The notes under the pieces were generated by a model that was not told the DNA's origin, did not search any database, and worked only from the letters and a program-made list of their open reading frames with translations. The translations under genes and the position numbers were made by a program. This document shows, in pieces, positions 23,373 through 61,373 of a stretch of DNA of 64,000 bases. The number at the start of each line of letters is the position of its first letter. The stretch's first letter is position 1. Location: the NCBI RefSeq assembly GCF_032062105.1, contig NW_026931523.1:186001-250000 (forward strand), given 5' to 3'. The DNA comes from Saccostrea cucullata (taxonomy: Eukaryota).

Positions 23373-23386
23373 TCTACTTTCGTTTT
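23373..23386. promoter_or_regulatory. Conserved IRF-element-like 14-mer upstream of R1
   Basis: TCTACTTTCGTTTT (reverse complement AAAACGAAAGTAGA), identical upstream of R2 and R3. Confidence 0.6.
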
Positions 23387-24165
23387 AGAAATCGCAAAAG
23401 AAATGTTTTACATACATACTATATTTTATACACTGTTTATCAAAAAAAAAAAAAAAATCATTGGAAGTTCAGTCAGCGAAACGCAATATTCATCAGTGAT
23501 ATACAGATTTATTATACAACCAATAGAATAAATAATTTACAACCTTGTATTTTATAATTCTAAAATTAATCATACCTAGAAAAGTTTAATCTCTAAAACT
23601 AATGTCAGGGGTCTATGTAGAATATGATCTTCAAAAATAAGAAAAAATACCTTTATTATTAATATAAATATATTACTCAAATGTAATCATAAACTGTAAA
23701 TAGAATAACATGAGTACTTGGGTACCATTTGATTGACAAACAATATAAATTCATATACATTAATTTGAAATGACCCTCTTATTGTTTCACTTATTGCATA
23801 TATATAACGATTAAACCACTCCAGACCTATAACCCAAAACAATAAAACAATATTGTATCATTGGGCCACACTAGTACTATATGAAGATGCAAATTAAGAT
23901 TACAGCATAAGAAATTTTCAACAGAAAGACAAGATATAAACAAGAAATTTACTGAATTAAATTCATTTATTTTTTTTTTATTTCAGTTATATATTGAGTA
24001 CGTTATGGTTAGATGTTAAAATTATTTCTTTTATTTCACAAACAAATATATTTAAAGGCTCTTTTGAGATTTTAATTTGTCGATTTTTTCATTATGGATC
24101 ACCGGTTTTAAACTCATTGAGCCTTATTAAATTTCTTACAAAGCAGCATAAAAAGTGAAAACACC

Positions 24166-27100
24166 ATGCAACACAAAATATGGTTTTCTGCCGTCATCCT
24201 GCTCCTTTATGTGAAGGTATTTTGTATATATGTTTTTGAGATTTGTTTTAAATTTGGGACAATAAATTTTTACCTTGAAGAATCAGACATTTTTATGTTT
24301 TTATTTTGAGAGCTATAACTTATCTGTTATTGTTATATTTCTTTTTAGAATGGTTTTTTCCTTGATGATAGACATTGTTTCAAGTCTTTAGAGACTATGC
24401 AGATAGTCGAAAGCTGTCCTCGTGACAAAAACGAAATGGAAGAAGCTGCCAAAGAAAAAAACTGTTCACATCATGCAAAGAACCAAAGTTGTACTGTTCC
24501 AGAAAATTTCAAATATCATTGCGTTATTAATGTTTTCAGGAATCAGTCTATCGAAGTTTGCGCCCCAGAGAGAAAAATTAATGGTAAAAAATGTTGCAAG
24601 CTCATCTATAATAAATTAAAATGTATGAAATACAGCCCCGCACACTTTTTATAATAATTGACACAAATCAACGTCACATTGGATCTTTTTTTTTTTTTTT
24701 TTTTTTTACAATAAAACTGAACATTATTGAGCTTAAGAATGAGACATTACTCAGTAATGTAATTAATATATGTTTGGAAAGGTACATATTTTTGAATTTT
24801 ATTATCTTAAAGTTTCAATGTTGATGTTTAAAAGGGTGCTTTATTAATTAATGCTATGCTGTTATATCTGTATAATTCTACCCTAGGTATTTACAAATAT
24901 TAATAATTATAATCATTTGTACTATTAATTGCAATTTTCAAACTGAATTCTTGTATTTTGCTATGTACTTTGCAGATTTTTCATACTCCTCATGGTATTG
25001 TCGAATTGTAGCTCCAAAATTGACAATGCTGCATAAAATAATAGGATAAAAAAATACTGTTTATCATTTACAGTCTGAAAAGTCTGGGTCGTATCTCACA
25101 TAATGCGAGATTCAGAAAGTAGACCTGTACAAAAATGCCAGCTTTTTAACATGGAAAGCAGTCGAAAAGATGAGAAATGCTGTTATCATCTTGTGCATTA
25201 GTGTCATATTAATGTACAAAACACACAGAATTTACTTGATATATTTTAAAAAGAACGGGTACAAAGTCGGCTGCATTTGATAAGAAACCATAAAAACATT
25301 AGGGAACAGCTGTCATAATCTATCAGCCAAGAGTATATCAAAACCCTACCAATCATAATGTGTGAATTATGCTTTAAAGCAGTGAAATAAACTTGAGATT
25401 AAGTTAGAAATCATTTTAAAAATATATTTTTTCCCACGTAACATAATTTCGCATAATTAAAATTTAATATGACCATGTGAGTTTAAAAATTGCACGGAGC
25501 TGTATTATGATTCAAGATGTACATTTTGCGATATTCAAATATTAACTCATGTTAATTGGAACAGAATACAGTTTATTTTAACCACTTTGACAATTGTATC
25601 ATAAATGCATTTTTGTAATATTCCGTGTTTATTTTGATGTTTTATGTGGTTTTTAGGCTTTTGTGTAGAATTCAACCTCGAAGGTGCAAGAATACAAGAT
25701 CAATACCTCTCTGACTGTACAGTTTTAGACCCGCCTTGTCCAAAAAGATACAGTTCAACTGATGCTTATTTATGTAAGAACATGCCATACATACATCTGT
25801 ATATATTATTTATATGAACTTGTGAGATATGATAAAATTACGGAGAATAAGAGTACAATCTCAAGTACTATACACATTGAAGTGCATTTTAGTTTACATT
25901 TTAATGAAGATTGCATGATATCGAAACACCCTTGCTAGGAAATCCTTTTTACACTTTCAGAACATCATATATTTGTTGCTATTCACAAACAGTATATAAA
26001 GAATATTACTCCACGGTACAATTACAAGTACATTTTAAAATATTGTGACTTATGGTAAGCTTTAAAAGGAATAATACATACTAACAGGAATCATTATTTC
26101 TATTCACATTCTCTAGATCAGGCGTGTTATAAACACTCCTCGGTCTCGGCAAACACGACTACTGACGAAATTTTCTCTGCCGGGAGCAAAACTACATCGC
26201 CTAGTAATTTGTTGCCGGAAAGTGAAACTGACAATAAAACTAAGTGAGTTCTTATTTGAATGAATGTAACATGTACAATGATTAAAACAACTAAACGCTA
26301 ACATAAATATGAATTGTTTTTCTCATTATTTAACAGGGCATTGTGGATATCTTTCACAGTTTTTGGAATTATTGTACTGGTTGCCATTCCTTTACTTCTA
26401 ATCTGTCGATGGAGTAAATATTACATATCTTTCTTGGTCAATTAATAATGTTATAAGTCTATCAAGAAATATCTCAATTTCAGTTTTAACAACTCCTAAT
26501 GCATTGCGTAACAATAAAAATGATTTCAAGATATTTCATTTGTTCAAAGAATACACTATCATGATTACAAACATATCACTTTGATGTAAATAGGAAGAAG
26601 GAAAAATCGAAAAAAACGAAGAGCAGGTACTGGAAGTGAAACCGACGCAACTAATGGAAAAACAAAATCTGAAATAGGTAAATATCTTTGGTTTGTATAT
26701 ATGCAGATTCTACTTTTAATGGTTATTTCCATAAAATTCAATGTAGAATTTCATTGTGAACAAAGCTCTGAAGTATGAAAATTAAACATAAAATGTGTTT
26801 TATCTTTAAAACTGAACAAAAAGGAAATGTTAAGAATTGAATGATTAGCTGTTTATAGATTTAAATGAGATATCAAAAGTGTTTTAAATGATGTATTTCT
26901 ATTTATTTTGTAGAGGAAATGAAGCCCTTAGTTATGCATGATTTAGAGGGCAAGTATTTCCATAATGTGTTAAATCAAATATGTTTTATCTTTAACCCAT
27001 GTTTCTCATACATATTTATTTTTCATGTAAAAATATTTCACACTAATTAAGTTTACTATATAAATATTTATATTTCCAGACAAAATGACGAGACGACAAA

Positions 27101-30100
27101 TAAAAATGGGAACAACAACAGATAGATATAGTAAGAATTTCATTGAACAAAATATTTTTTTTTTCAGAATGTGTTTAATGTTAAATGTTTAATTTGAAAT
27201 AGAGAATGAAAAATACATTTCATAAGATTTTGGAAAAACTTTTTGTAAAAGAATTATATGGAGATCTCGAACAGTATTCAATATCAAAGTTCATAAAACA
27301 ATACAAAATAGGAGCAAAGCAAAAACGGACCTCCGAAACAGCGGTGGGATCAGGTGCCATAGAGGAGTGAGCATCCCCTGCTGACCAGTCACACCCGCCG
27401 TGTGCCCCTTGTCATGATCGGGAAATAACGGAAAATATGTCGTCAATTCAATGTATAACTAATAATATGTATGAAAAACACCAGTCAGCATTTGACTTAA
27501 TCATAAATTGTATTGTCTGACAAGGTCATTGTATCGACCATAGAATTTACGAAATGATAACTTTAAACGAGACTGCTGATATTCTTGTTTCATCAACTTG
27601 CTTGTCAATGTCAATAATTTACCTCGTTTTAGAAACTGTTCATACGTAGAGCATGCTCTTGCGTATCGAATCAATTGAGATAAATACACACCGTTTGCAG
27701 GTGATGAAGGTACTAGTATATGGCTGCATAAGTAAGGGAAGTTGACGATAGAAAATTTAAAGTCACCATGTTTATCATATAGCTTGGATGTCAGATTACA
27801 ATTAACGTCTATTCAAAGTAAAATATCCAAGTATGAAACAGATTTGTCAGATTCTGTAGTATCTTTTATCTCAAACTCTCCAGGATATATCGTATCGATG
27901 AAGTAATGGAAATTATCTTTATTGCCAATACGTCGTCGAAGGCCACAACAAAAGTTTTCTTATTTTCACGCAAACGATTGTGCAAAAAGTCTGCTTCATA
28001 TGAATACAAAAATAGGTCTGCTAATAATGGAGCGCAGTTGGCACCTTTGGGAATTCCAATAGATTGTTAGAAGACCTGGTCTCCAAAAACCACATAGATA
28101 TTGTCAATCAGAAACTAATGCATTTCTTTGATGTTAACTTCAGAATACTTGTGTGTGCAATCAGAGTATATTTCCTTGCTGTGTGACATTGTACTAACAA
28201 ACTACAAATTTTACTATTTTAGCATTTACAGCGCAAAAGTCAAAGGAAGAGTTAGCAGAAGAAAACATAGGTAAGTTTAAAAAAATTGAAGTCATCTGAG
28301 GTATTGCCTTAAGTGGGTCTTCTGATTAAAAAAAGTTTCCCACATATGTCCTGTCTGTCGTGTGCTGTCAATGAACTTTTCCAGATCTACAACTTTATCT
28401 CTAAAACAACTGGATCTTATCAACTAAATTCAATATTGTTTACATGAAAAGCCTTGATCTTTTTCAAGGTGAGATTATTAAGAATTATTTCAAATTCCAT
28501 GACATCTTCTTATCTTATTCTATTGGGCCTGTGAAAATGAAACTTATCTAAAAGCTTCATCACATAGAATAATTTTCAAATGTCTTCATATCATGCCTCT
28601 TTGGCTTGGATGATCCCATGAAGGCAATCAAAGTTTAACATAGGAATTTAGTGTAAAAATCATATTAAAAGAATCAATGCTTTCATATTTACATAGACTA
28701 TCCTAAGAAAGCTAGGTTATAATTAGATACAGTGTACTGGTTTTAATCATGATCTCCGGGAATTATAGTATGGACTAGAACGGGTGATTAAAGTTATTCA
28801 TAGTAGCATAAAGAAAATTTCTTTACAAAACTTACTATCAGGAAAATAAAATCCATAACCAGTCGTATAAAGGCGCATCATCGGGGAGAGGATATTCTAA
28901 TTTGTTGAAATCCTGACTCCCGGGGTAAGTGGGGCCTCATTAGAAGATCACAAGTATACGTCACCCATGTTAAATTGCATCAATAATAAGAGATGGTGAG
29001 TCAATTCTTTCATGGCGTGTGATTTTCAATCCCAAGGGGAGACTGATTCTTCAAATAAGATCCTTTAACTGAGGTCCCTTAAAAGCTTGGCGCAGTAGGT
29101 GCTGGCATGATCTTTTACTGCTCAATTGACTCGAGTGCCGAGTATAGGACAAAATTTACAATCTTCCACCCGCAAGTGGTAGGGTTTCCATTTGAATATT
29201 CTAGACAGGAACCTTACACGTCAAACAAAGTATAAATATTTTAAAATGGTTTTGGAATTTTGGAAGTATTTAGGATAATAATAATCAGCTTAATCTCAAA
29301 TTATTTCAGATGAGACGAAAAAATATTTGAAAAGCTACAAGACTTTTAATCGCTACTTTGTTGAAACTGAAATGTACAAATCTGCCAAATCATGTTTGGA
29401 AAAAAATAACATTGTTGTTATGATTGGAGCTTCGGGTTGTGGGAAAACTAATGCTGCAATTCACATGCTATTCGAAGCGGAAAAGGAAAACTGGGTTTTA
29501 CGAAAATTTGGATCATGGGAAGAATTTACTCTTTTAGATGCAAATCAAAAGACTGTCGTCTTTATCGATAATGTATTTTATGGAACTGATAACTACGATT
29601 TAGAAAATTGGTGGAAGGAGTTGGATGAAATATATGGAAACTATCTAAAGCAAGGAACACAGAATTCACATGAAGAGTCTATGGTTAAGTTGCGTCTCAT
29701 TATTACTGCTCGAGAAAATGTTATTGAAAATGCATGTCAGTTTATGAAAAGGATAACGCCCGTATTTAATGATACTTATCGGGAATACGCAAATAAATAT
29801 CCTTTAACCGACGAAGAAAAAAATGAAATCTTTCATAAACAAATTGAATTTGCAGAGAAAGTAAAACATATTTGTTCACCACCAGGTGATTGTCATGGCT
29901 TCAGAACAAGTATATTTAAAGCTGAGGGTCCAATTGGTTTTCCCCTTTGTGCCCATTTATACGCATGCAAAGAGGAATACAGAAGGCGTGGTGCTAACTT
30001 TTTTTCTCATCCAATCGAATTTCTCAAAATTCAAATAGAAGATGAAGTCCGTAACGACCAAACCTCTAAAACCAAAACCCTCTTTTTTGTCCTTTTTCTT

Positions 30101-31651
30101 TATGAATGGCATTTAAAAACACATGATCCACATGCAAAGCTCAATCCAGAAAGCGAAGTTGCATGCAGGCAATTTTTGAATGCAATATCACCCGATCTTA
30201 TGGACAATTTTAGCCCTTTAGATTTCAAGGAGTTAAAAAAGTTTGCACGTCACTTGTCTGGTTCATTTTTTATTGAAGTCGAAGGAGGAGGGTTTAAATT
30301 CGTTCATGACAGTGTATATGAGGCAGTGGGGACATACTTTTGCGAGCGTTATTTTGACAAAGTCATTCCCTTCTTTCCATTTGATGTGATTCAAGCTCAG
30401 GAATACACTTCTCTGAGAAAGGACCAAATATCAAAACTTGTCCTGAGATTTTTATATGAAGCGTTTAATCAAAGATTTTCAAAAGTTTTTGGATTTAACG
30501 TTTTTAGATTGAAAACTTTTTCGGATTGTTTTTGTGATGAACTAGAGAAAAAAGGAGACAAAGACATTGAAAGTTTTTTTTCTCTACAAAATGTCGGCTC
30601 TAACGTTAAACTACCCGTTTTGTTTTGGGCTAGTCTTAACAAGCATCATTATTTAGTAGATAAAATGTTTGGCATCCTCAGCAAACATAACATCAATACT
30701 GACTATCAATTTTATCTTTCATTGTATGGTGAATGCTGTTCAAGAAGTGAGCATATAGTGACAAGACTAAATGGAATGCTTTTCAATAATATGGAAGAAA
30801 TAAAGAAACGCGTTCTTGATTTTAAAGACGAAGAAAAGAACACAGTTCTACATCTTCTAATAATGTCAGAGAGATCCGACAGCACTGTAGCAGAAGCAGT
30901 GGAGAAATTGATTAGAGACAAAGCAAATATTAATGCACGCAACAATTTAAATATGTCACCATTAATGGTTGCTGTCCAGCAAAAAGCAGAAAGATCAGCA
31001 GTAATAAAAAGGCTAGTTGAAAGCAAAGCAGAAGTGAAATATAAGGATAGAAATGGAGCTACTGTTTTTCATCATTGCATGAATTCAGAAAATAATGATG
31101 AAATATGTGCCAAGAATTTAAAGCTTCTCTTAGGTGGAACCAAAAGTAAAAGGTTATTAAATAGTGACGACAACGATGGAGAATCGGTTTTAAACGTTGC
31201 TGCAAAACAAAACAAATATAGTAGGTTATTATGCATTTTAACTATTCTTGAATGTGAGGATGTCAATGCCTCTACATTAAATTTAGATGGATGCTCTCCA
31301 GTTTACAATGCTGTGAAGTACTTGAAGGCAAAATCTCTATTTAGTGAATTGGAATGTTGTGCAAGATTGATTATTTTCATTTTGTACGGAGTGAATCCGG
31401 ACAAAGTAGCAGACGATAAAACAAGTGCCAAACAAATTTGTTGTGCTGAATATAAACATGCCTTAAAAATTTTAAACAACCATGATGCAGAAGCTATGGA
31501 AAAAGAACTTACAAAATTAATTGCACTCGTTCAAGAAACAGTAGAAACGAAGGCAAATATAGAACTCCCAGATTGTTCTTCAAAATTGCCAGAAAGTATA
31601 AAATTGCTCATACGACAAGGAGTTCACTACTTGGCATCCGCTGAACTATAG
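24166..31651 (+). CDS. Receptor R1: type-I membrane protein with Cys-rich ectodomain and cytoplasmic STAND (nSTAND3-like) NTPase plus ankyrin repeats; ~1055 aa
   Basis: Exons 24166-24216, 24349-24583, 25657-25773, 26117-26243, 26337-26413 (TM ALWISFTVFGIIVLVAIPLLLIC), 26594-26677 (RRRKNRKKRR), 26914-26949 (GC donor), 27080-27130, 28223-28270, 29310-31651 give one continuous frame. Walker A GASGCGKT, Walker B VVFIDN, sensor LIITAR, GxP GFPL, MHD-like FVHD; ankyrin-like TVLHLL, SPLMVA, TVFHHC, SVLNVA, SPVYNA. Confidence 0.85.
27290..28170 (-). mobile_element. Penelope-like reverse transcriptase fragment (frameshifted), antisense in an R1 intron
   Basis: Minus-strand remnants GIPKGANCAPLLADLFLYSYEADF and YLSQLIRYARACSTYEQFLKRG...RLKLSFRKFYGRY, followed by the typical 3' tail. 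Confidence 0.85.
28320..28960. repeat. Degenerate satellite or Helentron-like repeat
   Basis: Recurring AATCATGATCCCCGGGG-type and GGGCC...TCAAAGTTTAACATAG-type units of the kind common in oyster repeats. Confidence 0.45.
28990..29230 (+). mobile_element. Decayed SINE
   Basis: ACTGAGGTCCC...TACTGCTCAATTGAC..GAGTGCCGAGTATAGG...AATTTACA core with a CAAACAAA tail; same family as 45918-46218. Confidence 0.55.
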
Positions 31652-34339: not shown

Positions 34340-35375
34340 TTATGGTATGACCACAACATTACCAGTAGAAGAGTTTTCATCACTAGAAGGCAATGATTCG
34401 TCACTACATTTACTGTGGATTACCTCTAGATAAACGCTCGCTTTCTGCAATGACGATTGGTTTGATTCAGAGCTATCAAATGGTGGAAGACTACAAATTG
34501 GATCGAGATAGACGGGATCTGATGTATTTTCACTGGAATCATTTATCATAATTTTCTTATTTTCCAGTCCTTTGTACCTGTCAACAGCAGTTAATTCGGC
34601 TGTGCCGTATCTATTGCTAGTAGCTCTTTTTCGAAAACATTGTTTATAAAGATAAGTAGCGACAAAAACACCAAACAGCGTCACAAAAACGCCAACTAGG
34701 ATAAAAATTCCGTACAAAATAAAGTCCGCTTTCGTCTCATGCTGTTTTATTGTACTTATCATCTTGGTTGTTTGAAATGCAAGTTCTTCGGTACTCAAAG
34801 TGTTTTCAGATACAGCTGATGTTCCAAAATACCTGGTAGCTAAAAAAAAGATGAGTGAAAAATATAATTTTATATGTATGTTAGTATCCTGTATAATTTC
34901 AAAAAAATGTGTCTCTTTACTTCTCTGTTGAAGACATCCTAGTACAAAATCGCAAAGATTTTCTCTACATTTGCACCCGCCTTGACAATCTTCTCCAAAG
35001 CTAGGATATTTGCACCTTTCTGAGCAGTTTATATTATGGTAACCAACAGGACACTCTAAATTTAAAGCAAGAAATTTCTTTCTCTAAGGTTAAAAAAAAA
35101 CAAGAAAAACACCGAGGCATTATTCCAATTAATATTGATAAAAAGACCTACTCTCACACATTGCATTTTCTTTGCTCCAAAAGTATCCTGCGTAGCAAAG
35201 AGATATCTGACGACTAAAAAATGTAAAACGTAACATGAAAAATTACCTGAATATGCAAAAATGGAAATGAATTTCAGAGAATGCAAAAAATGAGATAACT
35301 GTTTTACCTGTCATTGGTGGAAAGAACAAATTTGCACACAATAAAAGAAAACGTAATTAGATTATATTTTGTCAT
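34340..35375 (-). CDS. Single-pass receptor E2 (paralog of E1); ~254 aa
   Basis: Exons (minus) 35308-35375, 35152-35213, 34921-35055, 34340-34839; internal exon sizes (62, 135 nt) and phases are identical to E1. CPVGYHNINCSERCKYPSFGEDCQGGCKCRENLCDFVLGC; TM FILYGIFILVGVFVTLFGVFVATYLY; tail DRYKGL, DPVYLDPI, SVYLEV. Confidence 0.88.
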
Positions 35376-37204: not shown

Positions 37205-37218
37205 TCTACTTTCGTTTT
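37205..37218. promoter_or_regulatory. Conserved IRF-element-like 14-mer upstream of R2
   Basis: TCTACTTTCGTTTT, about 800 bp before the R2 ATG. Confidence 0.6.
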
Positions 37219-38015: not shown

Positions 38016-41000
38016 ATGCAGATTGTAAGAAATATAAACACTTTTCTACTTTTGTCCATCAGTTTACACGTGAGTATATATCATTTTCTGGCATTCTTAA
38101 TTCAAGTATGGCTTTAAAGAACATTGAATTAAAATGATTTTTTAAATCATTTTTTTCAAATTAAAGAAGTATTCTGTACAGCATTAAAGAGTTGAGGGGA
38201 AAAAAAGAAAATGATTTTCAACTTAAAAAAGTATGAGGTGCCGTTTTCGTATTTGTTATCATTAATAATTTTAACTATTCGAATATTCAAATAGATAATA
38301 TCCTCTGTTCTAAATTGGATAAGTGATATCGCTTATTTGAATATGTGATAGCAACCTATATGCGTTTCCATAAATGCCAATATATATGAATTTAAATATC
38401 TATATTGGATTCCGAAACTTCATAAAAACTCTTTTAAATAAATATACATAACGGGTTCCAGTGCAAAGCCCATTTCTTTACTCCCCATTAAGATATTAAC
38501 AAATTGAAGGAGAAACTTCAGGCGTGCTGTGTAAGAAATGGTGTAAATCAAATGTGGATACTAAAAAATCTCAAGGAATTTTCGGAAAATTCGAAATCAC
38601 AAAATTTTCGATATGTTTTTCTGTGGAGTCGATATATTATTAGATTGACTGAACGAAAGGGATACACTCTTTATCTTATGCTTAGTGAGTTTAACAGGAA
38701 AAGCATTTGAAAATAATAAAAGCAAAATTGTAATTTTTATAAAGATATCATATTATAGAATTTTTGGATTTTTTCCTCAACCCAGTGACTTCACAATATG
38801 ATAATTGATTTTTTTATAATAAAGAATATATATTAAATAGAATGTTTTGTGCGTTGATCGATCATGTCAGTGGTCAAAGAGAACAATCGAAGATGTTACC
38901 AAATGCCCATTAACTGTTGAAGAAGTGGAAAAAGCCGCAAATATAAAAAATTGTAAAGCCTTGGCTCAAAAGCAGAACTGCACCGATCCTTCAAATTTCA
39001 AATATCATTGTGTGATAAATGAAGAAGAAGACTCACTGGTAGAGGTCTGTGCTCCAGCATACTACATTCATGGTGAGTAAAACATTATGTATAATTTAAC
39101 ATAATACACATGTAAATAAGGTGGACTAAAAATAATTTTGATAATTTTCACAAAAAGCAATCATAATCTAATACCATTTACTAATTTACAGGTTTTTGCA
39201 CAGAATTTAATGTGAAAGGTCTACTGATACAACCGCATTTCAGCATAAAATGCAACAATATTACACCATGCTCAGAACGTTATTTATCAACATTAGCATA
39301 TCAGTGTGAGTAAACAACAATTAAAACCATACATTTTTCAGAGTGGTTAATTAGTGAAAAAACACAAAGTTACTCATCAATAAAAAAAAGTGATACAACG
39401 TCAAGAAACCATTGTTTTTATTTTCTCCTCCGGGAAACCATAATACATGTATATATGTATATTTATGATATACAGATAATGTTATCTATGTTGAACAGAA
39501 TAGGTAACACTTTGTACATACACGATGCAATCATTTTTTTGCGTACTTAAATTAAGTGGCACTGTGCACTGCCTTACGTACGTCTCCATATCAAGCAGAT
39601 ATTTGAGTTTTGGTGCTAGCAAACATGACCAGTTTAATATACCCATAAATGATTATCAGTTGAAATTCACAAAATTTACAAACTGCCAACAAATGCAGTT
39701 CTGAAATTATGTTTATATGTAGTATAAATTTATGATCATATAGGTCACAGTACCTTAATTTTAAATTGTATTTCTACTACATCACATCACAATTCTTTTT
39801 TTTCAATTTCAAGAAACTGACAAATGAAAGTTATGCTCAAGAAGTAAAAAGACTGATTAAAGAAGCCAAGGTTTGATTTATAATGAGTGATAATATAATT
39901 ATTTATTTTATTTACATAATGAAGTTCCAAAGTGTTATGATGTGGTAAAGAAGCGTACTTTTTCCCCCCTGATTAATGAGACAACGACCATTTCATTTGA
40001 TTCATCTGACAGTGCAAAAGGGGACGGTGTCATTAAATGGCAAGTTTATGTTACCACACTTTAAGTTACAATTTATTTACACAATCTGTGCTTTGCAGAT
40101 ATAAAAAATAAACTTACTGTGTATGTTTGCAATATGCATGTGACATAACAAATTATACGATAACATATATAAGAACACACGCCATTGATATTTATCTTTC
40201 CCTACTTCACCTGACTGTGATGTTGTTAATGTGATATGTAGATTATCAAATTAGGCTTTCATGATTTAAAAAAAAAACAAAATGAGACAAAGATTTACCA
40301 AATAATCATGCATGTGCAAAATTGTTTCCTTCGGTTGATTTTTGTCTTTCAAACCAAACATGTAAAATCAATTTATACAAAGGTATTGAAAAAAATATCA
40401 TTCTCCTTCTTATTTTATCAATTTGATGTCATTTTATTTTTTCGACATGTTTTAGTACGTTTGATTATATGTCATCAATCATATCATGATATATCTAAAG
40501 AATCTGGGGGGATAAGTGAGTCAAATGCCCACAAGGATTTTGTCGCTCTGTAGGCATTTCGGAAATTTCATAGTTGTACGATTTACCTAAACATTTAAAC
40601 TTTGTACATCACTGTCCAAATGACAATATCTATATGTTAACAGTATTTTTAACGTGATGCTTTTCATATTGCGTGTTAATTTTTCTATCAAATGATTATG
40701 TCTTCAGGGTTTGGGAGATGGTACGCTTTACTTTTCCTTTTAACTGTTTTTGAATACAGAACAGTCATATCGCGCTGGCTACCCATGATTGAATTTGTTT
40801 ACATTTTAATCGTGTAATGCAGTCTTGAACTAAATGCATTTATGCCTCCTCCTTCCCTACCTACAAAATCAAAATTAGACAAACTCACAGGTATGTTGAA
40901 AAAAGTTTATTGATCAAAATATAATAAAATTTTTGATCAAATAAAATCATAAACTTGTACAAACTTTTTTTAAAAAAATAATTCCAGTATAACAAAATGG

Positions 41001-44000
41001 ATTTCAAAATGTTGATATATAAATTACAGTTTCCTTAAACAAAAATGGATTAAACATTATAAAATTGTTAATTCAGTTCCATTGTATCAAAATGGATGCT
41101 ACAATGTAAATTTGCAAATGAAGTTACAGTATCGCAAAGGATGGATTTGTCAATGCAAAGGAACATCAGTAATCCGCAAACATATCACATATAAAATCAA
41201 AAGAGTAGAATAATACAAAAATTACAAGAAACTAAATATCTGCTTGATATCCACAAAAATGCATAACATAATGAATATCTATAAAGCATGTATCAAAAAG
41301 TATCAGATAAGTGTATTTACACAAAAATCGACTAGTGGCAACAGGTTAAAATGTTATTTCACATGTAGATTGAAAACATGTTTATTATAGGTAAAACATT
41401 AATTGACCGTAAATAAATTCTTCATCTTATTTATTCATTTTGTTTTTTGTAAAAAAAAAATGTTTATCTAATTTTAACCTGAACTTAAAAAAATCGTAAT
41501 TCGAACACTCGCGACAGGTAACTGGTTGCTTCAACTCCGCCGCTATGACTACTGAGCCACGAAGTCGCACAGACATTTCCCTTTAAATAGCAAACAGTTC
41601 TATATATAGCAAACGCACAACTGGACTTAGAGTTTTTGAGAATATGTTGCGAAATTTAAGTAGGTAAACTAACTTTTTTATATAAAGTGGGTCTTCGTAC
41701 CATTTTTTTTTAAATGTTGAGAGATACATTCTTCCATACCCTTTGAATATTTGTTTACAAAAAAATGGTACGAAGACCCACTCCATATAAAAAACACAGT
41801 TTTAACATTCAATGTCTATCATTTTTACGGTTACTAAGTGTATAACTACTTTAACGGGTTAATTACAATCAATTTGTAAGTAATTTGATTCAAGTTTAAC
41901 CTTTACTGTATGCATACGGTTATAAATTACTCCCAAATTTAACAAAAAGAGGAATTTGCAAGATTTTATTTAATCGATATTTTACTTGCCCTTGCGTAGG
42001 CATATGACTCGCCTAATCCACCCAGATTCTTTATTCTAAATTCAAAGACGACTTGATAAGCAGCCTTCATTTAAGAGAGTGAATATATATATAAATGCCA
42101 TGCATGTGATATCATAGAAAGCTTTATTAATAGGTGGGTATTGCGCAGACTGTGTATTATACATGTACATTGTATATGGGGAAAGTATTTTGAGAAGCAC
42201 ACTACGTTTTCTTGTTCTCTGTAAGATTAGTAATTTCCTCTCTTCCCTTGAATCAATTTGTTTTCATTATTCCTAATTTGAGCTCTTCTTCAACTTTTCT
42301 TTAGGTACATATATTTCCTGATAGTCTTTGTAATCACAGCATGTTTTGTTTTTGTACCTGTCTTTGTTGTGTGCATGTGCGGATACCGCAGGAAGCAAGG
42401 TAATTTATTGCAAAGAATCCACTCGATGTATTTCATTTTAAAATCTTAAAAATGGAATTAAATGGATGTTTTTTTTAAATCAAATTAGGCTGGATGAAAA
42501 TTGCATGAATTATATGAGTTTATAAATATGAAGTTGAAGCATATGTATGTGTTTGTGAATCTGCGAATGCTTAAGCGGACTTAATTATAGAGAGTGAAAA
42601 AATTATACTTTGAAAAATACCTCTTCATTCTTGTGAAGATGTTATGACATCAAGCCGTTGAAAATTTGTTATTTTATTTCAGTTTCATTTAAGATAACAC
42701 TTTTTTTTACAGAACAACAACGAAATGACTTAAATGAAGAAGGTATTATGTAATTTATATATACCTGCAATAAATTATCAATCCTCAATGAGTCAAGTTT
42801 GTTTGATTTCTGGTTTTACTTGTAGTGTGTCACATAATACATGTATGAAGAAAAGAATTCTAAGTTGTGAAAAGTACAAAATTTTACTTTTTAGGTGTGG
42901 TATCCCAAGAATTGCTCCGAAAAGAGGCTAAGAAGGGTATGTTTATATTTTATTCATGCAATGATGTGAATTGTAAAGTAACAGTAGGAAATATACAAAG
43001 ATTTCAAGTTGTCCATGGTCGTGAATAACAATTCGTACTCAGAAGCATTTGTCAATATTCCAAGAGTGAAGTATGTATACAAATCATTTTCTGAATATTA
43101 AAACATACCGGTATATCATAAGATCAAAGATCTATCAAATAAAACAAACTTGAGTAAACGTATACTAGTTACAGGATGAGTTTACAGGAATGCAAGGTGG
43201 ATTGTAGTCATTTACAAATCGCAACCATGAATACATATAATTAAAATGAAATTAAACTTCCCATTAAGGGAAATAAAATTTCAAATTTATTTTTCTTGAT
43301 TACAGTGTAATTTTTTAAACGCGAAAGGTGATTAGTCTTTGAAGAAACTAATTTGTACCCCTCGGAACAATGAAACAGATCGCGTGTGCAGTTTAAAAAC
43401 AATTATTTGTAAATCAACATTTATAGTATTAAGATATTTTTTAAAAGTTCAGATATTTTTTTTATATATATAACTCGTAAATATTTTACTTACGGAAAAG
43501 AAAAGTTCATCTGTCCAAGTACTTTGATTATGTTTATAAGAAACAACGAATAATGTAAAACGATCTGATCTGTAATTATGCCTATAAAATTCATTATCTT
43601 AAAGTGAATTCTTCTATCAATATTTTTTGCAAATCTTGTCTTTAAGTTTTAACTTTATTCATAGTTGAAAATGATTTGTGACAGTTGAGTTTATTTATTA
43701 TAGGCCGCAGCAGCGGCCGATCTATTTGTGGTTGTGTTAGAAAGTGCACATGGGGAATTGAGAAGATATTTTTTATTAGTTCAGTAGAATAAGTCTTTTA
43801 TGATAACAAGTAAAAACGTAGTATTAATTGCCGATATTATATTTCAAGTTCATTATCATTTCTCATCAGATAATTGATAATTTATAGTTATATAAAAATA
43901 GTTTACAATATTTATACTCCCCGGCCTGGGTGTGTGTAAGATATGAAAGGAAATCGTCATGATTTTCCGGATTATAATGACGTGGTATAGAATGGTGCAT

Positions 44001-47000
44001 TAAAATTAAAAAAAAATTAACTTGCGAAAATTGTTTTGAATATGCTCTTCAGCTTCAAATGATAAAAAGATATATTTCTACATTTTGCTTTGCGGCTTGC
44101 AGCATAGCCAACTCTGCAGAAACCATGAGCATTATCACGTGGCCAAGATTCAGGGTATCAGCTGCACATGGTTCATCTTGAGAGGCCTATATATCTTCAT
44201 TTTGATGACATTAAAATATTATCATTCAGCAATGATTATTTTTTGTTTGTTTGGGTTTTTTTTTTACATCAATGGATCTATTTTTTAGCAAATTCGGTAT
44301 TTAAAATGTCCATTTATTGAATTCCTAAAAATTATTTACTTTGCTTTGAAGAATGAATAACAATGAATCAACTACATGTATTTCACCTTTAAATATCTTG
44401 ACGTGCTTTCCTTGCATGGGCCCTTTAAAACTGAAACGATCGATATTTAATTACTAAATTTTGTTTGCGGCCAAGTTGATGCTTTGCATCAATTACTTGT
44501 GTATAAATTGTTAATGATACACCACTGTCAGACATATTTACGATAAAATTTAGTTTAGAAGTAGGCTGTCACCAGTTTCACATTTTACACGTTTACCAGA
44601 ATAACAACATGAAGAGTAATTGCGATGAGAAGTGAATATAGGCAAACACCTAAGTGTTCACTTCTTGAAAGACGATACGCGGATGATCTACTTCTTTGGA
44701 AATACTTCGAGGGAAAATTGATCATCTGCATGAATCTAAACACTTTATATTGTTGATTTTCTGACATTAAAAAGATGATTTTGTGATACTGAAAAATCCA
44801 ATTGAATTTCCTTTATCAAAAAATGATTTTTTAAGTTTAAAATTCGAAGTCTTCGTATAAAAAGAATCCCGTTTATTATTTTTTGATGTCAGAAAAAAAG
44901 ATTTGTTAGATGTAAGAAAATTTTTTTGATATCATATTAGAGCAAGGAGTCTTTTTGTGAACACAGTGCTTACATTACCTCTGGGATTCTAGTGGATTCG
45001 GTAAAGCTAAATAAATTATTTTAATAAGCACTTTTTCTTTATTTATTATCGATTCTACTGGTTACTACTTTCATTGCTTGAAATAATAATAATTTTATAA
45101 ATATTTTGTGATCTTTCTTTAAATTTCTTTAGAAATAACTGACATTTCTTCCACTCTCTATATGTTAATATTCAAAACTTTATATCTGTTATCTTTATAT
45201 CAATAACAAACTTAGTTGTACTGTTCTTTTATTAATAATTTTTTTTTACAGAAAGACGATCTGAGTCCAAAATGGAAAGCGATAGTAAGCATTTCTTTGT
45301 TTCTTATGTTTCGTATGAATTCACCGTTGGTGAATGTAAAATATTTGGAGTTGATGTAATTGTTTTATTTACATGTTTCGTTTATAATAATAGACGATTT
45401 CTCGTTTAAATGAAATATTGATGTTCGTAAATTTACTTTTAATTTGTTGTATTCATTTTTGAATGATATCTTTAAACCTTAGAAAGAAACACATAACTCT
45501 TAAACAACCCCTCTTTTCCCGCCATTCAATCGCAGTGTGTTAGCCCCCCTTGTTCAACAATAGCAGCTCGATTTTTACGAAGCATTAGGTTTATCAGGCT
45601 CTTGATCTGAGCATAAAGAATCTTCTTATCAATTTTTAATTATCTGTTTTTCAAATACTGAAGTAGATTTTTTCTAACCTGGCCCAGTGTAGTAAATATT
45701 GAACGTCTGGTATTAAAACTGCCATTCATGGTTTTGAAATTCATGAGCATATTAAGTTGCTTTGTAGTGCATATTTGCAAAACATAATATGCAACTCTCC
45801 TTTACTTTAAGCTTTGAGAATTTAAAGCAAGAGCCAAAAATCAGAGCTTTCAGTAATTTTAAGGAAATACTGGCATCATATCGGGAAAAGAATTTTTTCG
45901 GAACAACATTACATTAATTGATTAATTGTATATTGATTAACGTCCAATTCGAGAAGTTTTCACACATATCAAGAAGTCTTCGTATACCGGTGAAGGGATT
46001 CACATTAAGATCTATACTCGGCAATCAGGGCCATTCAGCAGTTACGGTTCTTACGCTTTAAAGGTCATATCCTAAAACCTGTCACTTCTAATGCTGAGCG
46101 CTCGGTGAAGGAACAGTCATCAGCTATGTTTACGTTTTAGGTTTGACGCGGTGCTGCGATCGAGAATCGAACCCGGCCTCTTGATCAAGATGTGAACGCT
46201 CTGCCACTAGGCTACGGTTGAATATCAATGCAATATTATACATTTATTAACTGAGTTCAAGGGCAACATGCGTTTTGTCGGATCCAAGAACCAAACTGTT
46301 TGCCTGAGGCCGTTCGGCCGAAGGCAGACAGTTTGGTTGGAGGGTCGACAAAACGCATTTTGCTCGAGGGCAAGTCAATATATGTTTTGAAATACCTTTC
46401 ATTTTTTGTTGTTGTTGACACTCGTACATGTATTTTGTACTGTCATCGTAATGTAACCTTAGGTCCGTCACTTTCGAACATCAACGAATGAAACTGAGAT
46501 TAAGCTCCGCCAATTCTGTGAAATGACGGGTCCAACATCTCTTCGAGGGGTCCAACATCTCACCCAGCCGTTTAACATCGATTTTTTAAGACCGCTCAGC
46601 AAAACATTAGAAATATTAGACTTTTTTCCGCATCGATTTGTGTAGGAACAACATTTTAAAGGTTTAACAATATACATTTATTGAGTTCGAGGGCAACATG
46701 CGTTTTGTGGCGCCCAAGACAAAACAGTTCGGTTTAAGGGTCGACAAAACGCATTTTGCACGGGAACTTAGTCAATACACTTAATGTTTTGTGATATCTT
46801 TCATTTAATTTATTTTTCAAAATGTATTTTTTACTGTCTTCAGTGATGTATCATCAGGCCTGTCACTTTTGATCACCAACGAATGAAAATGAGATAAATC
46901 TCCACCCATTCTATGACTAAGAGGTCCAACATCTCACTCAGCAGTCAAAATCGATTTTTTTATGCTCGTTTAGCAAAACATTAGAAATGTTAGAATTTTT

Positions 47001-50000
47001 TCGAATAGATTTGTTTAGGAACAAATTTTTTAAGGCATTACAGCTACAAACCCTTGAAAACCTGTGTTATTTCAAATGTTTTTATCGAACATGCAATTTG
47101 GGATTTTTGTTAAGAGGCCTCAAAATCAATTTTGTTACTGAAGTGGAAATCATTCAATCTTTAAATTACTGATTCGGCCAAATTAAGGATGACCTTATTT
47201 TATAACCTTTATGCATGTATAATTTTCCCCTTGAAATAAGGATGTTGTGTTTCGTTTATGTTTCGGTCTATATATCATTTGCCTTTCATGTTACAGGTAT
47301 CTCAAGAGAATCGATAACAGATGAACTAGTAGGTAAGTTTACAATAATTTGAAGTTAAAAGTGCGTAATGTTTATGACAAAATATCGTTCTTTCCTCTAT
47401 AAAAGGGGAATTTTACCCATTTCGAACGTAATTTTTGATACTTTTTTTAAAAAAAAATGATATTGGATTTATCTCCAAATAATACCTGTCTATCTTTCAT
47501 CATTTAATTTATACACAATCAAATTTGAAGTAGAAATAAGTTTGGTAAAAAAGAAAAAGACAGAAAATAAACAAAGAACATATATGAAAATTTAAAATGA
47601 ATCTAATGTCTCACATTTTGGTATTCTTTCAATAGTTGTTGCTCCCGGCAGACTGTTGATAGACATGTATCACGAATCAGGTAAAAAATAACCATCTTTA
47701 ATTTTTTCAAATGTTAAGGTCCTATAGTTTTGAGTAAAATGAGAACTGTTATTGCAATAGTTAGTGAATAAACCATGATAATATGATATAAATAGTTCAT
47801 TTTGAAAAGAGGAGGCATGAAAATAGTTAAGTTCAATTTCTTACGAAGGAATAGGTGTATTTTAAAACCTCTGTACTTCTGCCTTTTAAACTCAACCTGG
47901 GTATGTTAGGGCTTCACTTGGATATCTGCAAAACATGTTATCAACTGAACTTAGTCATTTAGATGGTATTTTAAGCGAAGTATTTTATACAGGAGTGATA
48001 TCCCTTCACGAATGCAAAAGGAACATATAAAATTATAAAATATAAGTATGATTAAAATCAGATATACAGATTTATTATGAAATAGTTTTCCTATGATGAT
48101 GACAGGCTACGTTTTAAAATTTTACCCAGTATTTCCTCCACCGATTTAAACAAGAAAGATTCAAAAGTTCAGGATATTATGTATATTAGTTCTCATGCTC
48201 CGACAATATAGAAAGATTGTATTATATAGAATATGAAAAATGCTGGAAGAATATTATGACTAGTATGGCTTGATAAAAAATATTCCATCACCTAGGTACA
48301 ACATAAAACACTTTTTGATAGCTTTCAGTGGGCTCCAGGTTATTATTTCTGTGACCGGAGAGTATGATTCTAGCAACATTTTTCATGTTGTACGTAATTA
48401 TTTTATAAACAGAAATGAATATTTCCCGGGGTTTGCTAGACCTTTAACTTATCATGAAGGCATATTTTTCTATTTACAGACGTCACACAATGATATTCTT
48501 GTTCGATGCTCGTTTTTCCTCAGACTTATTAACGTGTGCATTGATAAAAATATTTCATGCTTTAACCATAGCTTAATTTCCCAATTAATCAATGCTGAAA
48601 CCTTGCCGAATAATGATCTGGGTTCTGCCATTACATACCTGCGTTTAACCTCAACTTCATTTATAAAGAAGTTTGCTCAAATTTGAAATAATTATTGTTT
48701 TTAACCACCAGGTATGTGATTTTGAAAGTGCAGGATCTTTTACGAACGAATACAAGCATCCTTTTATTGAATATGTGGTTCAGCACATCATCTTACTTAT
48801 CCATTATGAACAAGAATGCTTTTTCAATTGAAATGTTTAAATTACGTTTTATTTAAATAAACATTTTGTGTCATGTAGTTTAAATTTTAAGTTCAAATTT
48901 TGCTTTACTAGAGGAAGAAAGAGAACAGTATGCAGTGGAAAATGAAGGTTTGTAAAAATTATAATGAATAAATTTTAAATAATAATTTTTCAGTAAAAGA
49001 AAGCTATAAAGGAACACTAGATAGGTCCTAAAATATTGGATAAAAAGTAAAACAAACTCTTCCACTGATTTCGGTCTTAAATGTACATGTATGATATATA
49101 AATGAACTGTTAAAAGCATTTCCATGTTACAGAGAATATATAAGGAAATATTTCTTATATTTTTTTCTCTTTTTTAAGATCACACCAAGTCCTATCTCAA
49201 TGCTTTTCAACATTTTGAAAAATATTTCGTGAAAACAAAGGTATTTACAGTCTGTAAAAATAAGTTACAAACAGAAGGCGTTGCTGTTTTAGTTGGTCCG
49301 CCGGGTTACGGAAAAACTAACATTGGTATAGGCATCATGAAAGATGATGTTTACAAAGATTGGAAAAAGCGAAAAATAAAGTCTTGGGCAGAATTTAGAT
49401 TTATAAATTCAGAAGAGAATTCTCTCATTTATATTGATAATATATTTGACGGGTTCATGTATCATCATGAATTGGAAAAATGGTGGAATATATTAAATAA
49501 AACCTTCTATGATAATATTTCACATAATCCGAATGATGAGCAAGATGAAAGTGAATTTTTTGCAAATAAAGGAGGAAAGATTCATCTTTTTATAACCGCC
49601 AAAGAGAGTGTATTAACAAAAGCACGTGAGTACAACAAGATCAAGAGAACCCCAGTATTTAAAAGAAACTGTATTATAAATGTTACAGATTATGGCTTCA
49701 CAGCTACAGAAAAAGACGAAATCTTAGATAAACAATTTGAATTTGCAGAGAAAATATTGGATATTCCAAGGCCGTTGGTAGATCAAGAGTTTAGAAATAA
49801 AATGAAGGAATTAGTTGGTCCTATCGGCTTTCCACTTTGCGCTCATCTTTATGCGTGTGAAAAGGATCATAGAAATACTGGCATTGACTTCTTTCTTTTC
49901 CCGATCAATTATCTTCGGAAACAAATAAAATATGAAATTGAAGGTGATCAAACTCATGGCGTGAAAACGTTACTCTTATTGCTATTCTTAAGTGAATGTT

Positions 50001-51355
50001 TGTCTCTCTCAAATATATGTGTCGAAAAACTTAACATTAGTGATTCTGACAAATGCAAACGGTTTCTTGAGAAGAATTTTTCGGAGGAGATGCTTGAAAG
50101 CTTTGAATCTTTAAACTTTGAGGATTTAGCTACTGTTGCGAATAAATTAACAGTAACTTTAATTGGTAGTGAAACAGAGTGCATGTATCAATTAAAGCAC
50201 CAAATTATTTTTGATGCAGTCGGTTTTTATTTTTGCACCGAATGTTTCAATGTTGCAATAAAATACTTTCCAATAGGTGCTTTTCAAAAGCATGAATATA
50301 TAAATCCTTCAGAAGAATTTTGTGACATTTTTTCTTCTCGAATCATTGATGAAGTGCATAGTGGGAATGTTTCTGAAGCCCTCTCTTGTGTTGCACTCAA
50401 ACAATACCATTTTGCACAACGCGTTTGTGATATTTTAAAATCAAAAAATGATGTGGAATCGTTTCTTCTTGAGACGGATTCAGTTACGGTCTATCCTCTT
50501 CCATCTGTATTTTGGATCAGCAAATACGAGCATATTATTTTATCGAAGTTGCTTTATGAATTGGTTCAAGAAAAGGGTCTTCTAGTTGACCACACTTTTT
50601 ATCTAGCTCGCTTTGGTGACTGTTGTGCAAATGACGAAAATTTTCTTAGAAATACGGCAAAAACTGTATTCAATTCGACGACAGAGATTATGAATTGTGT
50701 CTTTCAGTACAAGAATCACAAAGGAATGACAGTGTTGCACATTGTCCTTACATCCGAAAGACCTGATTATGATGCATATTTGATAATTAAAAAGTTACTG
50801 GAGGACTGCAAGTCCAAAACGTTGTGTGATTCAGACAAACAATGTGCCGTTTACTTTGCTGCAAATGAAGTACGATACAGTAGAATTTTATGTATTTTGG
50901 CATTGTTTGATAGCAAAATAGATATTAAAAAATCTTTCCCAAATGACACATCTCCAATTCATATAGTTTTGAAACTAATGAATGATAATTCTCATAAAAG
51001 TGTTCCTTTTCAACTAGAAATGCTGATCCGTGTTTGTATTTTCATAATATATGGAGTGGATTCGAAAATGAAGAAATCAAATGATCGTCGGTCAGTAAAA
51101 GATATGTGCAAAAATACAAATTGCAAATATATAAAAGAATTGTTATGCTCAAACATTTCAAAAAGTCAAAAGAGAATGTCAGAGCTTATTCAAACATTGT
51201 TGAGAGAACTTCCTGTCAAGGACCGAAACGAGAAAGTGCTTGAGGAACATGTACTTAAATCTGAGGGGCGATTGGATAAATCGCTAAGAAATGCAATTTC
51301 TTTGGCTGTACAGCAACTAGCCGGATATATACATCTGTCGGAAAATGAACGTTGA
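38016..51355 (+). CDS. Receptor R2: paralog of R1 (Cys-rich ectodomain, TM, STAND NTPase, ankyrin repeats); ~1002 aa
   Basis: Exons 38016-38069, 38841-39072, 39192-39305, 39925-40039 (GC donor), 42305-42399 (TM YIYFLIVFVITACFVFVPVFVVCMC), 42713-42742, 42895-42936, 45252-45284, 47297-47332, 47636-47680, 48912-48947, 49179-51355 give one continuous frame. Walker A GPPGYGKT, Walker B LIYIDN, LFITAK, GPIGFPLCAHLYAC (shared with R1). The micro-exon set is less certain than the rest. Confidence 0.8.
38445..38610 (+). mobile_element. Penelope-like retroelement fragment
   Basis: Remnant KEKLQ...RNGVNQMWILKNLKEFSENSKSQNF, typical of the region N-terminal to the RT of the family seen at 27290-28170. 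Confidence 0.65.
41496..41561 (-). mobile_element. tRNA-derived SINE head (decayed)
   Basis: Minus strand CGTGGCTCAGTAGT (A box)...GTGTTCGAATT (B box); no full cloverleaf. Confidence 0.45.
41674..41794. repeat. Short inverted-repeat (MITE-like) element
   Basis: TTTTTTATATAAAGTGGGTCTTCGTACCATTTTTT ... AAAAAATGGTACGAAGACCCACTCCATATAAAAAA. Confidence 0.8.
45918..46218 (-). mobile_element. Near full-length tRNA-derived SINE
   Basis: Minus strand starts ACCGTAGCCTAGTGGCAGAGCG (A box) ... GGGTTCGATTC (B box), then a conserved body and a CAAT-type tail. Confidence 0.8.
46240..47040. mobile_element. Tandem pair of a hairpin-headed non-autonomous element
   Basis: Copy 1 (~46240-46670) has the hairpin GGGCAACATGCGTTTTGTCG..AAACTGTTTGCC..GGCAGACAGTTT..CGACAAAACGCATTTTGCTC; copy 2 (~46672-47040) has the hairpin tip deleted. 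Confidence 0.75.
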
Positions 51356-57050: not shown

Positions 57051-57125
57051 TACTGGTAGAATTGTTCTTCTTCAGAAAATGTTAAAAATAAAAAAAAATG
57101 TCTATAGATATATCAACCATCCTTT

Positions 57126-59653: not shown

Positions 59654-61156
59654 CGGAAGCCCAATAGTGCAAACGAAATTATTAAATAAAAAACGAAATT
59701 AATATAAAAATGCAAACGAAATTATTCAATAAAGAAAAACAAAATTAAGACATGAATGCAAACGGAATTATTAAATAAACAAAAACGAAAATGATATATA
59801 AAGAAAATAAAATTAATAAAAGTATAGAAAAACTAAAACTAAGATACGGAATTTATAGATGTGCACAGGAAGGGTCTGAACCCCTAAATCGTATGTGCAC
59901 CGCGTATGATAGATTTTGTTTCGACAATAAACAAGCGAGAGGTTTGCCTTTACATTCACCCTTTCCTATATCGAAAACATATCCATTACAGAAAATGGAT
60001 TGGGAGAATTTAACCTTTGATATCTAATTGCAATTATTTAAGAAAATATGAACGTTAAGATTCCGTCGTTTACAACTCGTATTGTTGAATTTTTAACATT
60101 CAGGAAATTCCCTTATCCATTATTCAACTATCGCACAATACATTCAGTTGAAAATGCTGTAAAATAATTCGTTATCGATCGGACGTGGGTTTGTTTGACA
60201 TTATAAAAAATGTTTAAAGAAAACATTTGCAAAAAGTAAAACAAGTCAAAGTGGTTACAAGAAGTAGATTTTAATGATTGCTTACTATATAAAAAATAAA
60301 GCATATCACCTTCAGTTGATTCTTTTGTCTTATCAACGCATAATTAGAGGTGATGTACTGGCTACTAGTACTTGTTCTCACATATTATAAATGTCCAACT
60401 CTCAATCTGTACTATTTATAAGTCAGTGGTATTATATTATATAGTTCTTGTTCTCATATATTTTAAATGACAAACTCTCAATTTTGTATTTATAAGTCGG
60501 TGATATTTGTGAAATAATGCACACTCTTGTGAACAACAAATTCCACAAAGTAATCAAATCATTATTCTTTTTCAGTTTCAAAAATTTAAGATTTATTGGT
60601 ACACAGATCGGACGCTAGTTTAAGTTCGTGGAGATACGCAAGGTCTTGACCTTTCAGCGATTCAAGCGCTGTTTTGAATTGGATGTCATTAATTTTAATC
60701 AAGCAGAAACGCCACCCTCATGATCCTCTGTGCATAATGCCACACATCAACAAATTATGTATACCGTTAAACAATCATCGACATTTACTTCAAACATTAG
60801 ATTGAAGTATTTGTTTCAGTTGATATTTTCTCTTTCTCCCTCACTCTCCTTTTTGTTTAATAATTTCGTTTTTCTTTTTTTTAATAATTTTGTTTTTCTA
60901 TATTCAATAATTTCGTTCTTTTTATTTCGGTTTTCTTTATTTAATAATTTCTTTTGGCTTTATATATTAATTTCGTATTTCTTTATTTAATAATTTCGTT
61001 TGGCTTTATAATCAATTTCATTTTTCTTTATTTAATAATTTCGCTTGCATTCATTTCTTAATTTTGTTTTTCTTTATTATTGAATAATTTCGTTTGCATT
61101 TATATATTAATTTCGTTTTTCTTTATATATTTTTGGTTTGCACTATTGGGCTTCCG
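59654..61156. mobile_element. Foldback-type non-autonomous DNA transposon with repeat-rich TIRs
   Basis: CGGAAGCCCAATAGTGCAAA ... TTTGCACTATTGGGCTTCCG termini; subterminal AAACGAAATTATTAAATAAA-type arrays are mirrored at both ends; right flank TA, left flank AA. Confidence 0.85.
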
Positions 61157-61358
61157 TACACTTACGTGATCTTTAAAATGTAAACTACCTGCCTACGCAT
61201 TCTTATGCTTAATGGAGGACTCGTATGGTTTGCATTATTCATTATTTATTAATATATAATCAATAAGACATTTTTTTAGCGAGATAAGATTTTTAAAAGA
61301 TGATTCTTGGATTTGCTGGTCATTGATTTAAATGAAGGTGTATTTACAAAAAAGTTTA

Positions 61359-61373
61359 TCTACTTTCGTTTTC
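61359..61373. promoter_or_regulatory. Conserved IRF-element-like motif upstream of R3
   Basis: TCTACTTTCGTTTTC (reverse complement GAAAACGAAAGTAGA). Confidence 0.6.

What the first reader, a model, noticed from the sequence alone, without database searches (positions are those of the whole stretch)
23373..61373. Identical IRF-element-like 14-mer upstream of all three STAND receptors
Seen in sequence: TCTACTTTCGTTTT occurs at 23373-23386, 37205-37218 and 61359-61372, in the same orientation, 780, 798 and 1217 bp before the R1, R2 and R3 ATGs. The R3 excess roughly matches the repeat at 61600-62100, and by eye the flanks are not alignable. Established: the reverse complement AAAACGAAAGT contains the AANNGAAA core bound by IRF factors, and oysters have IRFs and an interferon-like antiviral response. 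Inference: the cassette is IRF-inducible and possibly antiviral. In pairs 1 and 2 the site lies between the divergent genes and could drive both.
Basis: partly seen in the sequence, partly recalled or inferred. Interest (0 to 1): 0.7.

Follow-up and report, generated by a model that had tools for sequence, protein, structure and literature searches.

The report
Oyster IRF-type element shared with transposons
The 14-base word is kept unchanged near the start of three otherwise unalignable oyster receptor genes and occurs about 30 times more often than chance across the genome, mostly inside unrelated mobile elements; it is likely a binding site for an interferon-regulatory-type transcription factor, but nothing here shows that the receptors respond to virus.

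Summary
Observation confirmed: TCTACTTTCGTTTT is at 23373, 37205 and 61359, same strand, with unalignable flanks. It is not cassette-specific. The genome holds 1705 exact copies against 55 of the reversed word, and 27 of the first 30 lie in repeat families (a PIF-type MITE, hAT-type elements, others). The three window copies are in no repeat I could recognise, and 80 sampled contexts fall into 37 unrelated groups, so the word recurs independently. It behaves like an IRF element: the spacer prefers purine-N (90 of 100 hits), its 11-base core equals that of a published IRF1/2-bound site, and the genome has three IRF genes. An RNA contig places site 1 inside R1's 5'-UTR intron, not in intergenic DNA; R2's site is at the same spacing from a donor-like word. 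R3 has no divergent partner. The exact word is absent upstream of 20 of 20 other family members. Non-repeat copies sit 5' of genes (12 of 12 vs 4 of 10), but immune-gene enrichment was not shown (8 of 36 vs 5 of 36). Verdict: a likely conserved IRF-type cis-element of a known kind; antiviral induction and bidirectional action untested.

The parts
23373..23386 (+). 14-mer copy 1, in the 5'-UTR intron of R1, 162 nt after the donor GT at 23211
37205..37218 (+). 14-mer copy 2, 165 nt after a GTAAGT donor-like word at 37040; inferred same intronic position in R2
   Evidence: no RNA laid here
61359..61372 (+). 14-mer copy 3; reads GAAAACGAAAGT on the minus strand, the full 12-base site listed for the EBV Qp promoter
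23187..23210 (+). Non-coding 5' exon of R1 (5' end is a contig end, not a mapped start)
   Evidence: one RNA-library contig, run X2, GT..AG joint skipping 933 nt
24166..31651 (+). R1: predicted ten-exon CDS of about 1056 aa, signal peptide, Cys-rich ectodomain, one TM helix, nSTAND3 and ankyrin repeats
   Evidence: joint 24216-24349 seen in RNA; 13 of 13 homologues of 1000 aa or more carry the same ectodomain
38016..51355 (+). R2: paralogue; signal exon from 38016, ectodomain exon at 38841, nSTAND3 exon 49178-51355
62589..64000 (+). R3: signal exon from 62589, ectodomain exon 63141-63371; continues beyond the window
19728..21290 (-). E1: divergent EGF-like single-pass membrane gene; start codon placed by eye, about 2.1 kb from copy 1
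34340..35314 (-). E2: divergent EGF-like single-pass membrane gene; start codon placed by eye, about 1.9 kb from copy 2
61600..62100 (.). Dispersed repeat between copy 3 and the R3 ATG; accounts for most of the extra spacing

Best explanation
The 14-mer is a conserved cis-regulatory word that likely binds an IRF-family transcription factor from the first, non-coding intron of these receptor genes. Shown: it is the only sequence the three 5' regions share, it lies 162 nt into the 5'-UTR intron of R1, and the same word recurs in dozens of unrelated contexts genome-wide, including several unrelated DNA-transposon families and the 5' ends of TRIM-NHL, Mab-21, HEPN-DZIP3, MACPF and also non-immune genes. 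Inferred: the ancestral receptor of this tandem array had the site, duplication copied it, and selection kept it while the flanks drifted; an IRF1/2-like protein would read the two AAAA/GAAA half-sites and raise or hold transcription of R1-R3 in haemocytes, either constitutively or after immune signalling. Whether the input is virus is open.
For: 1705 exact copies vs 55 for the reversed word; one-mismatch shell only 4223 vs 2359, so the word is a sharp peak. 80 distinct contexts form 37 unrelated flank groups. With the spacer free, 4711 vs 975; of the first 100 hits 90 have a purine first (GT 40, AC 18, AT 10, GG 7, GA 6, AA 4, GC 3, AG 2; counted by eye), the spacers of vertebrate IRF sites (recalled; examples). 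GAAAACGAAAGT is tabulated as the EBV Qp site bound by IRF1, 2, 5, 7 (PMC3219715, passages) and as the mouse Oas3 ISRE (PMC2175519, passage). Three IRF genes in the genome; one aligns to IRF-1/IRF-2 at E 2.7e-16 with the recognition-helix stretch nearly identical. CgIRF1 is reported to bind ISRE (PMC13524488, passages). The next paralogue on the contig carries the G-spacer variant 52 nt after a strong donor, another paralogue a one-mismatch variant 55 nt after a donor. Among 36 hand-picked non-repeat sites, 12 had a host-gene Pfam hit and all 12 lay 5' of it, vs 4 of 10 among 36 control sites (Fisher p about 0.003 by hand). Broad core in 2.5 kb upstream: 5 of 15 IFI44-like, 5 of 20 other receptors, 1 of 20 Ras genes.
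Against: No binding or induction data. Immune-type genes near non-repeat sites 8 of 36 vs 5 of 36 in controls, p 0.54. No strict core within 2.5 kb of 3 IRF genes or viperin; the one IRF-locus site at -4625 lies in a hAT-like copy. HEPN-DZIP3 genes picked without the motif: strict core upstream in 2 of 30, those two probably alleles. Exact word in 0 of 20 other receptor promoters over 6 kb. One copy sits 7 nt before the ATG of a WDR91-like housekeeping gene. The word is longer (TCT flank) and more strand-biased (10 of 12 on the sense strand) than vertebrate IRF sites as I recall them. Spacer counts include repeat copies and CpG decay, so they are not independent.
Confidence: 0.55

Rival explanations
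1. The word binds a non-IRF factor (Blimp-1/PRDM1-like zinc finger, which reads a similar word as recalled, or an unknown mollusc factor) and acts as a strand-oriented, promoter-proximal element without immune specificity; transposons carry it because it helps them get transcribed.
For: Sense-strand bias (10 of 12 host genes; all window copies); sites at WDR91-like, F-box, BTB and transporter genes; no immune enrichment; presence in unrelated transposons.
Against: Strict core in 0 of 20 Ras-family 5' regions and at none of the other genes in the window, so it is not a general promoter word; spacer tolerance and exact match to a bound IRF site.
Confidence: 0.25
2. One reading: a cassette-specific, virus-inducible switch that drives both the receptor and the divergent EGF gene.
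For: Copies 1 and 2 lie between the two ATGs of divergent pairs; poly(I:C)/OsHV-1 induces IRFs, IFI44, TRIM and cGAS families in Pacific oyster (PMC7064767, passages).
Against: Site 1 is inside R1's own intron and about 2 kb from the E1 ATG; R3 keeps the word without any partner; word is genome-wide, not cassette-specific; no induction data.
Confidence: 0.12
3. The window copies are non-functional relics: remnants of old transposon insertions or of the tandem duplication, kept by chance.
For: Most genomic copies are in repeats (27 of the first 30); the genes are paralogues, so copies are not independent origins.
Against: Flanks are unalignable to each other and to every held repeat family while 14 of 14 bases, including a CpG, are identical in three copies; variants at the fourth paralogue change only the spacer.
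Confidence: 0.08

Closest known systems
IRF-E / ISRE, e.g. EBV Qp site GAAAACGAAAGT (IRF1, 2, 5, 7) and the intronic MHV68 M2 ISRE bound by IRF2 (PMC3219715, passages seen)
   Same: 11-base core identical in all three copies, 12 of 12 in copy 3; purine-N spacer tolerance; intronic position has a precedent
   Different: Copies 1 and 2 have T instead of the first G; three extra fixed flank bases; apparent strand bias; binding by an oyster IRF to this word not shown
Transposon-dispersed interferon-responsive sites such as MER41 in mammals (recalled, no call)
   Same: Mobile elements carry and spread an IRF/STAT-type word
   Different: Here short non-autonomous DNA transposons of at least two superfamilies carry the same exact word; no evidence yet of co-option, and the window copies are not in recognisable elements
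Crassostrea receptor-like expansion: cysteine-rich ectodomain + TM + DED + TRADD-N + variable effector incl. STAND, ankyrin, HEPN (PMC8195603, passages seen)
   Same: Bivalve-expanded single-pass proteins with Cys-rich ectodomain and cytoplasmic STAND/ankyrin; at least 150 ectodomain matches in this genome
   Different: R1 has only about 75 residues between TM and nSTAND3, too short for DED plus TRADD-N; identity of the two ectodomains was not tested; regulation of these genes is not discussed in the passages seen

Membership tests
IRF-binding element (IRF-E/ISRE) | AANNGAAA core, two half-sites with a 2-base spacer | tested here: met
   Minus strand reads AAAACGAAAGT in all three copies; full GAAANNGAAA only in copy 3
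IRF-binding element (IRF-E/ISRE) | Spacer variable, half-sites fixed | tested here: met
   4711 vs 975 with free spacer; 90 of first 100 purine-first; repeat copies not removed
IRF-binding element (IRF-E/ISRE) | Cognate IRF protein with conserved recognition helix in the organism | tested here: met
   Three IRF loci; one checked against IRF-1/2 structures
IRF-binding element (IRF-E/ISRE) | Located near transcription starts or in first introns | tested here: met
   R1 intron 1, 186 nt after the 5'-most RNA base seen (one contig); 12 of 12 vs 4 of 10 on the 5' side of host genes
IRF-binding element (IRF-E/ISRE) | Enriched at interferon-stimulated-type genes | tested here: inconclusive
   Broad core 5 of 15 IFI44-like vs 1 of 20 Ras; strict core 0 of 4 IRF/viperin; immune neighbours 8 of 36 vs 5 of 36
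IRF-binding element (IRF-E/ISRE) | Bound by IRF and needed for induction | not testable with these tools
   Needs EMSA/CUT&Tag, reporter and challenge RNA-seq
Bidirectional promoter element | Lies between two divergent starts less than about 1 kb apart and drives both | tested here: not met
   Site 1 is within the R1 transcript's intron; E-gene starts unmapped; an enhancer-like effect on E genes is not excluded
Part of an abundant repeat | Flanks homologous to a repeat family | tested here: not met
   Met for 27 of the first 30 genomic copies, not for the three window copies against 322 held loci

The most novel reading that the evidence does not exclude
This word is the dominant high-affinity IRF site of oysters, and several unrelated DNA-transposon families (PIF-type MITE, hAT-type elements and others) have independently picked it up, so they are switched on by, and keep seeding, an IRF regulon that controls the rapidly expanding receptor and effector families (STAND receptors, TRIM-NHL, cGLR, HEPN). 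That would be an invertebrate counterpart of transposon rewiring of the interferon network, readable from sequence alone.
Probability: 0.2. Interest if true: 0.72.

Novelty: new member of a known kind. Interest (0 to 1): 0.42.

Why it matters
Oyster IRFs have been tested mainly on vertebrate ISRE reporters in the passages read; I found no paper giving a native genome-wide oyster IRF motif (searches; listings only for most hits, subscription papers and supplements not covered). A sharp native word gives a ready probe and a candidate target list, and ties an uncharacterised receptor-STAND family to a testable regulatory input. Its repeated presence in unrelated transposons is the more surprising part.

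Tried and rejected
Family-wide signature: exact word in 0 of 20 upstream 6-kb regions; 1 of 8 further 1.5-kb regions had the 12-base core. IRF autoregulation: the site upstream of one IRF gene is in a hAT-like copy, dropped as evidence. Splice-acceptor or branch-point role: only a minority of contexts end in AG and site 1 is mid-intron. General link to splice donors: donor-like word within 200 nt upstream in 10 of 28 sites vs 9 of 40 controls, weak. CpG-island context: none seen. Conservation inside repeat families could not be judged, as nearly all members were found through the word itself. One-mismatch search listed only exact hits, so per-position tolerance was not obtained. GPCR controls and 20 more receptor promoters could not be fetched; the Ras control is 2.5 kb per gene only. 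Atlas look-up of the ectodomain gave nothing. Of 40 fetched candidate sites, 4 proved to be members of the large repeat families and were dropped before the Pfam count; 36 of 40 control sites were scanned. Test ORFs were picked by hand from the top 7, control ORFs by script.

Full report
Observation. The ATG distances 780, 798 and 1217 check out on the sequence. BLAST of the 5' regions finds nothing shared but the word and adjacent A/T bases. The stretch 61600-62100 is a dispersed repeat. Three copies in 64 kb is unlikely even at the genome-wide rate (p 1.3e-4), although the genes are paralogues and so share one origin.

The genes. R1 can be read as a ten-exon frame of about 1056 aa with signal peptide, Cys-rich ectodomain, one TM helix, nSTAND3 and ankyrins. 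All 13 homologues of 1000 aa or more among 120 listed carry the same ectodomain, so the architecture is real; the database's own model of this locus is a shorter 811-aa piece. Named homologues are oyster proteins. The ectodomain has at least 150 matches in the genome. Two EGF-like genes run divergently from R1 and R2; there is none beside R3. R3's STAND exon and a fourth paralogue lie beyond the window.

Position. One RNA-library contig (run X2) splices 23187-23210 to 24144, so copy 1 lies 162 nt into an intron of the R1 5' UTR. A second contig (X1) began 20 nt before that acceptor, and two raw-read runs gave no reads, so this rests on one contig. Copy 2 is 165 nt after GTAAGT; the fourth paralogue has the G-spacer variant 52 nt after a strong donor and a paralogue on another contig a one-mismatch variant 55 nt after one. 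The element is therefore best described as first-intron, promoter-proximal, not as the centre of a bidirectional promoter.

Genome-wide. There are 1705 exact copies against 55 of the reversed word; at one mismatch the excess falls to 4223 vs 2359. Of the first 30 copies, 27 belong to repeat families: a 445-bp element with 36-bp inverted ends and TWA-type flanks (PIF/Harbinger-like by recalled criteria, 10 of 30), an 890-bp element with 8-bp target duplications (hAT-like, 5 of 30), a relative with the same ends, and four others. These families do not align with each other around the word. A sub-pattern that avoids the largest families still gave 322 vs 23. Over everything held, 80 distinct contexts form 37 unrelated groups, 23 of them single, including the three window copies. 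One young repeat cannot explain this; the word recurs.

Is it IRF-like? With the spacer freed the count is 4711 vs 975, and 90 of the first 100 hits have a purine first, led by GT, AC, AT, GG (counted by eye; repeat copies and CpG decay included). GAAAACGAAAGT is listed as the EBV Qp site bound by IRF1, 2, 5 and 7, and the same paper shows an intronic ISRE bound by IRF2 (PMC3219715, passages); it is also the mouse Oas3 ISRE (PMC2175519, one passage). The genome has three IRF genes, one with a recognition-helix stretch nearly identical to IRF-1/2. Pacific-oyster IRF1 is reported to bind ISRE (PMC13524488 and PMC5869526, passages). IRF motifs were found among motifs enriched at poly(I:C)-induced Nematostella genes (PMC8476169, passages; its supplement was not read).

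Is it immune or antiviral? Among 36 non-repeat sites, Pfam found host genes at 12: TRIM-NHL (2), Mab-21 (2), HEPN-DZIP3 (3), MACPF, WDR91-like, BACK/PHR, F-box and an SNF transporter. The word was 5' of the hit in all 12 and on the sense strand in 10. In 36 control sites 10 had host genes and the site was 5' in 4. So position is supported, but immune identity is not: 8 of 36 vs 5 of 36, p 0.54, because these families are large everywhere. From the gene side, the broad core was within 2.5 kb upstream in 5 of 15 IFI44-like genes, 5 of 20 other receptors, 1 of 20 Ras genes and 1 of 4 IRF/viperin loci; random DNA has 5.2 per 100 kb. HEPN genes chosen without the motif showed little. This is suggestive and small. 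IFI44, TRIM and cGAS families are induced by poly(I:C) and OsHV-1 in Pacific oyster (PMC7064767, passages), but nothing here shows it for R1-R3.

Family scope. The exact word is absent from 20 of 20 other receptor 5' regions of 6 kb; four carry the strict core with other spacers within 2.5 kb, all on the sense strand. It marks this tandem array, not the family.

Mechanism and verdict. Most likely an IRF1/2-type protein binds this word in the first intron and sets receptor transcription (0.55); shown are conservation, position, enrichment and consensus match, inferred are binding and effect. A non-IRF, strand-oriented element is the main rival (0.25). The element is a new instance of a known kind. 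The unexpected part is that unrelated DNA transposons carry the identical word; if they are IRF-driven or seed IRF sites, interest would be about 0.7, at odds of about 0.2. Overall interest 0.42.

Noticed in passing
L001-L030, L081-L110 (e.g. L025:1372-1818, L027:1064-1946, L007:313-1985): At least seven unrelated repeat families, several with inverted ends and target duplications, carry the identical 14-mer internally; a diverged hAT-like copy (L193) has the G-spacer variant.
   Followed up: partly
L195, 160-2800 nt upstream of the IRF domain exon (C12779): Several TTC-N3/N4-GAA palindromes (STAT-type sites as recalled) precede one IRF gene, as in vertebrate IRF1 promoters; some lie in a local repeat.
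   Followed up: no
window 59660-59820 and 60850-61150: Foldback pair built from a 23-bp A/T-rich tandem unit, ending about 210 nt before copy 3, where R1 and R2 have a divergent gene.
   Followed up: no
window 22347-22518 and 29239-29411: An inverted copy (85-95% complementary) of the acceptor and first codons of R1's STAND exon sits upstream of R1.
   Followed up: no
L150:2000-7065: Divergent pair of long, nearly intron-free ORFs (WDR91-like and an acidic protein) with the exact word 7 nt before the WDR91-like ATG.
   Followed up: partly
contig C13660 about 272.5 kb (L066, L285): Fourth paralogue with ectodomain exon but no STAND exon found in the scanned 250-430 kb; a third EGF-like gene lies at 293-302 kb.
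   Followed up: partly
window 14895-18140: Two C1q-domain genes arranged as an inverted pair.
   Followed up: no
L091/L092/L096: The word terminates an array of 125-bp tandem repeats; in C1053 two such arrays face each other.
   Followed up: no
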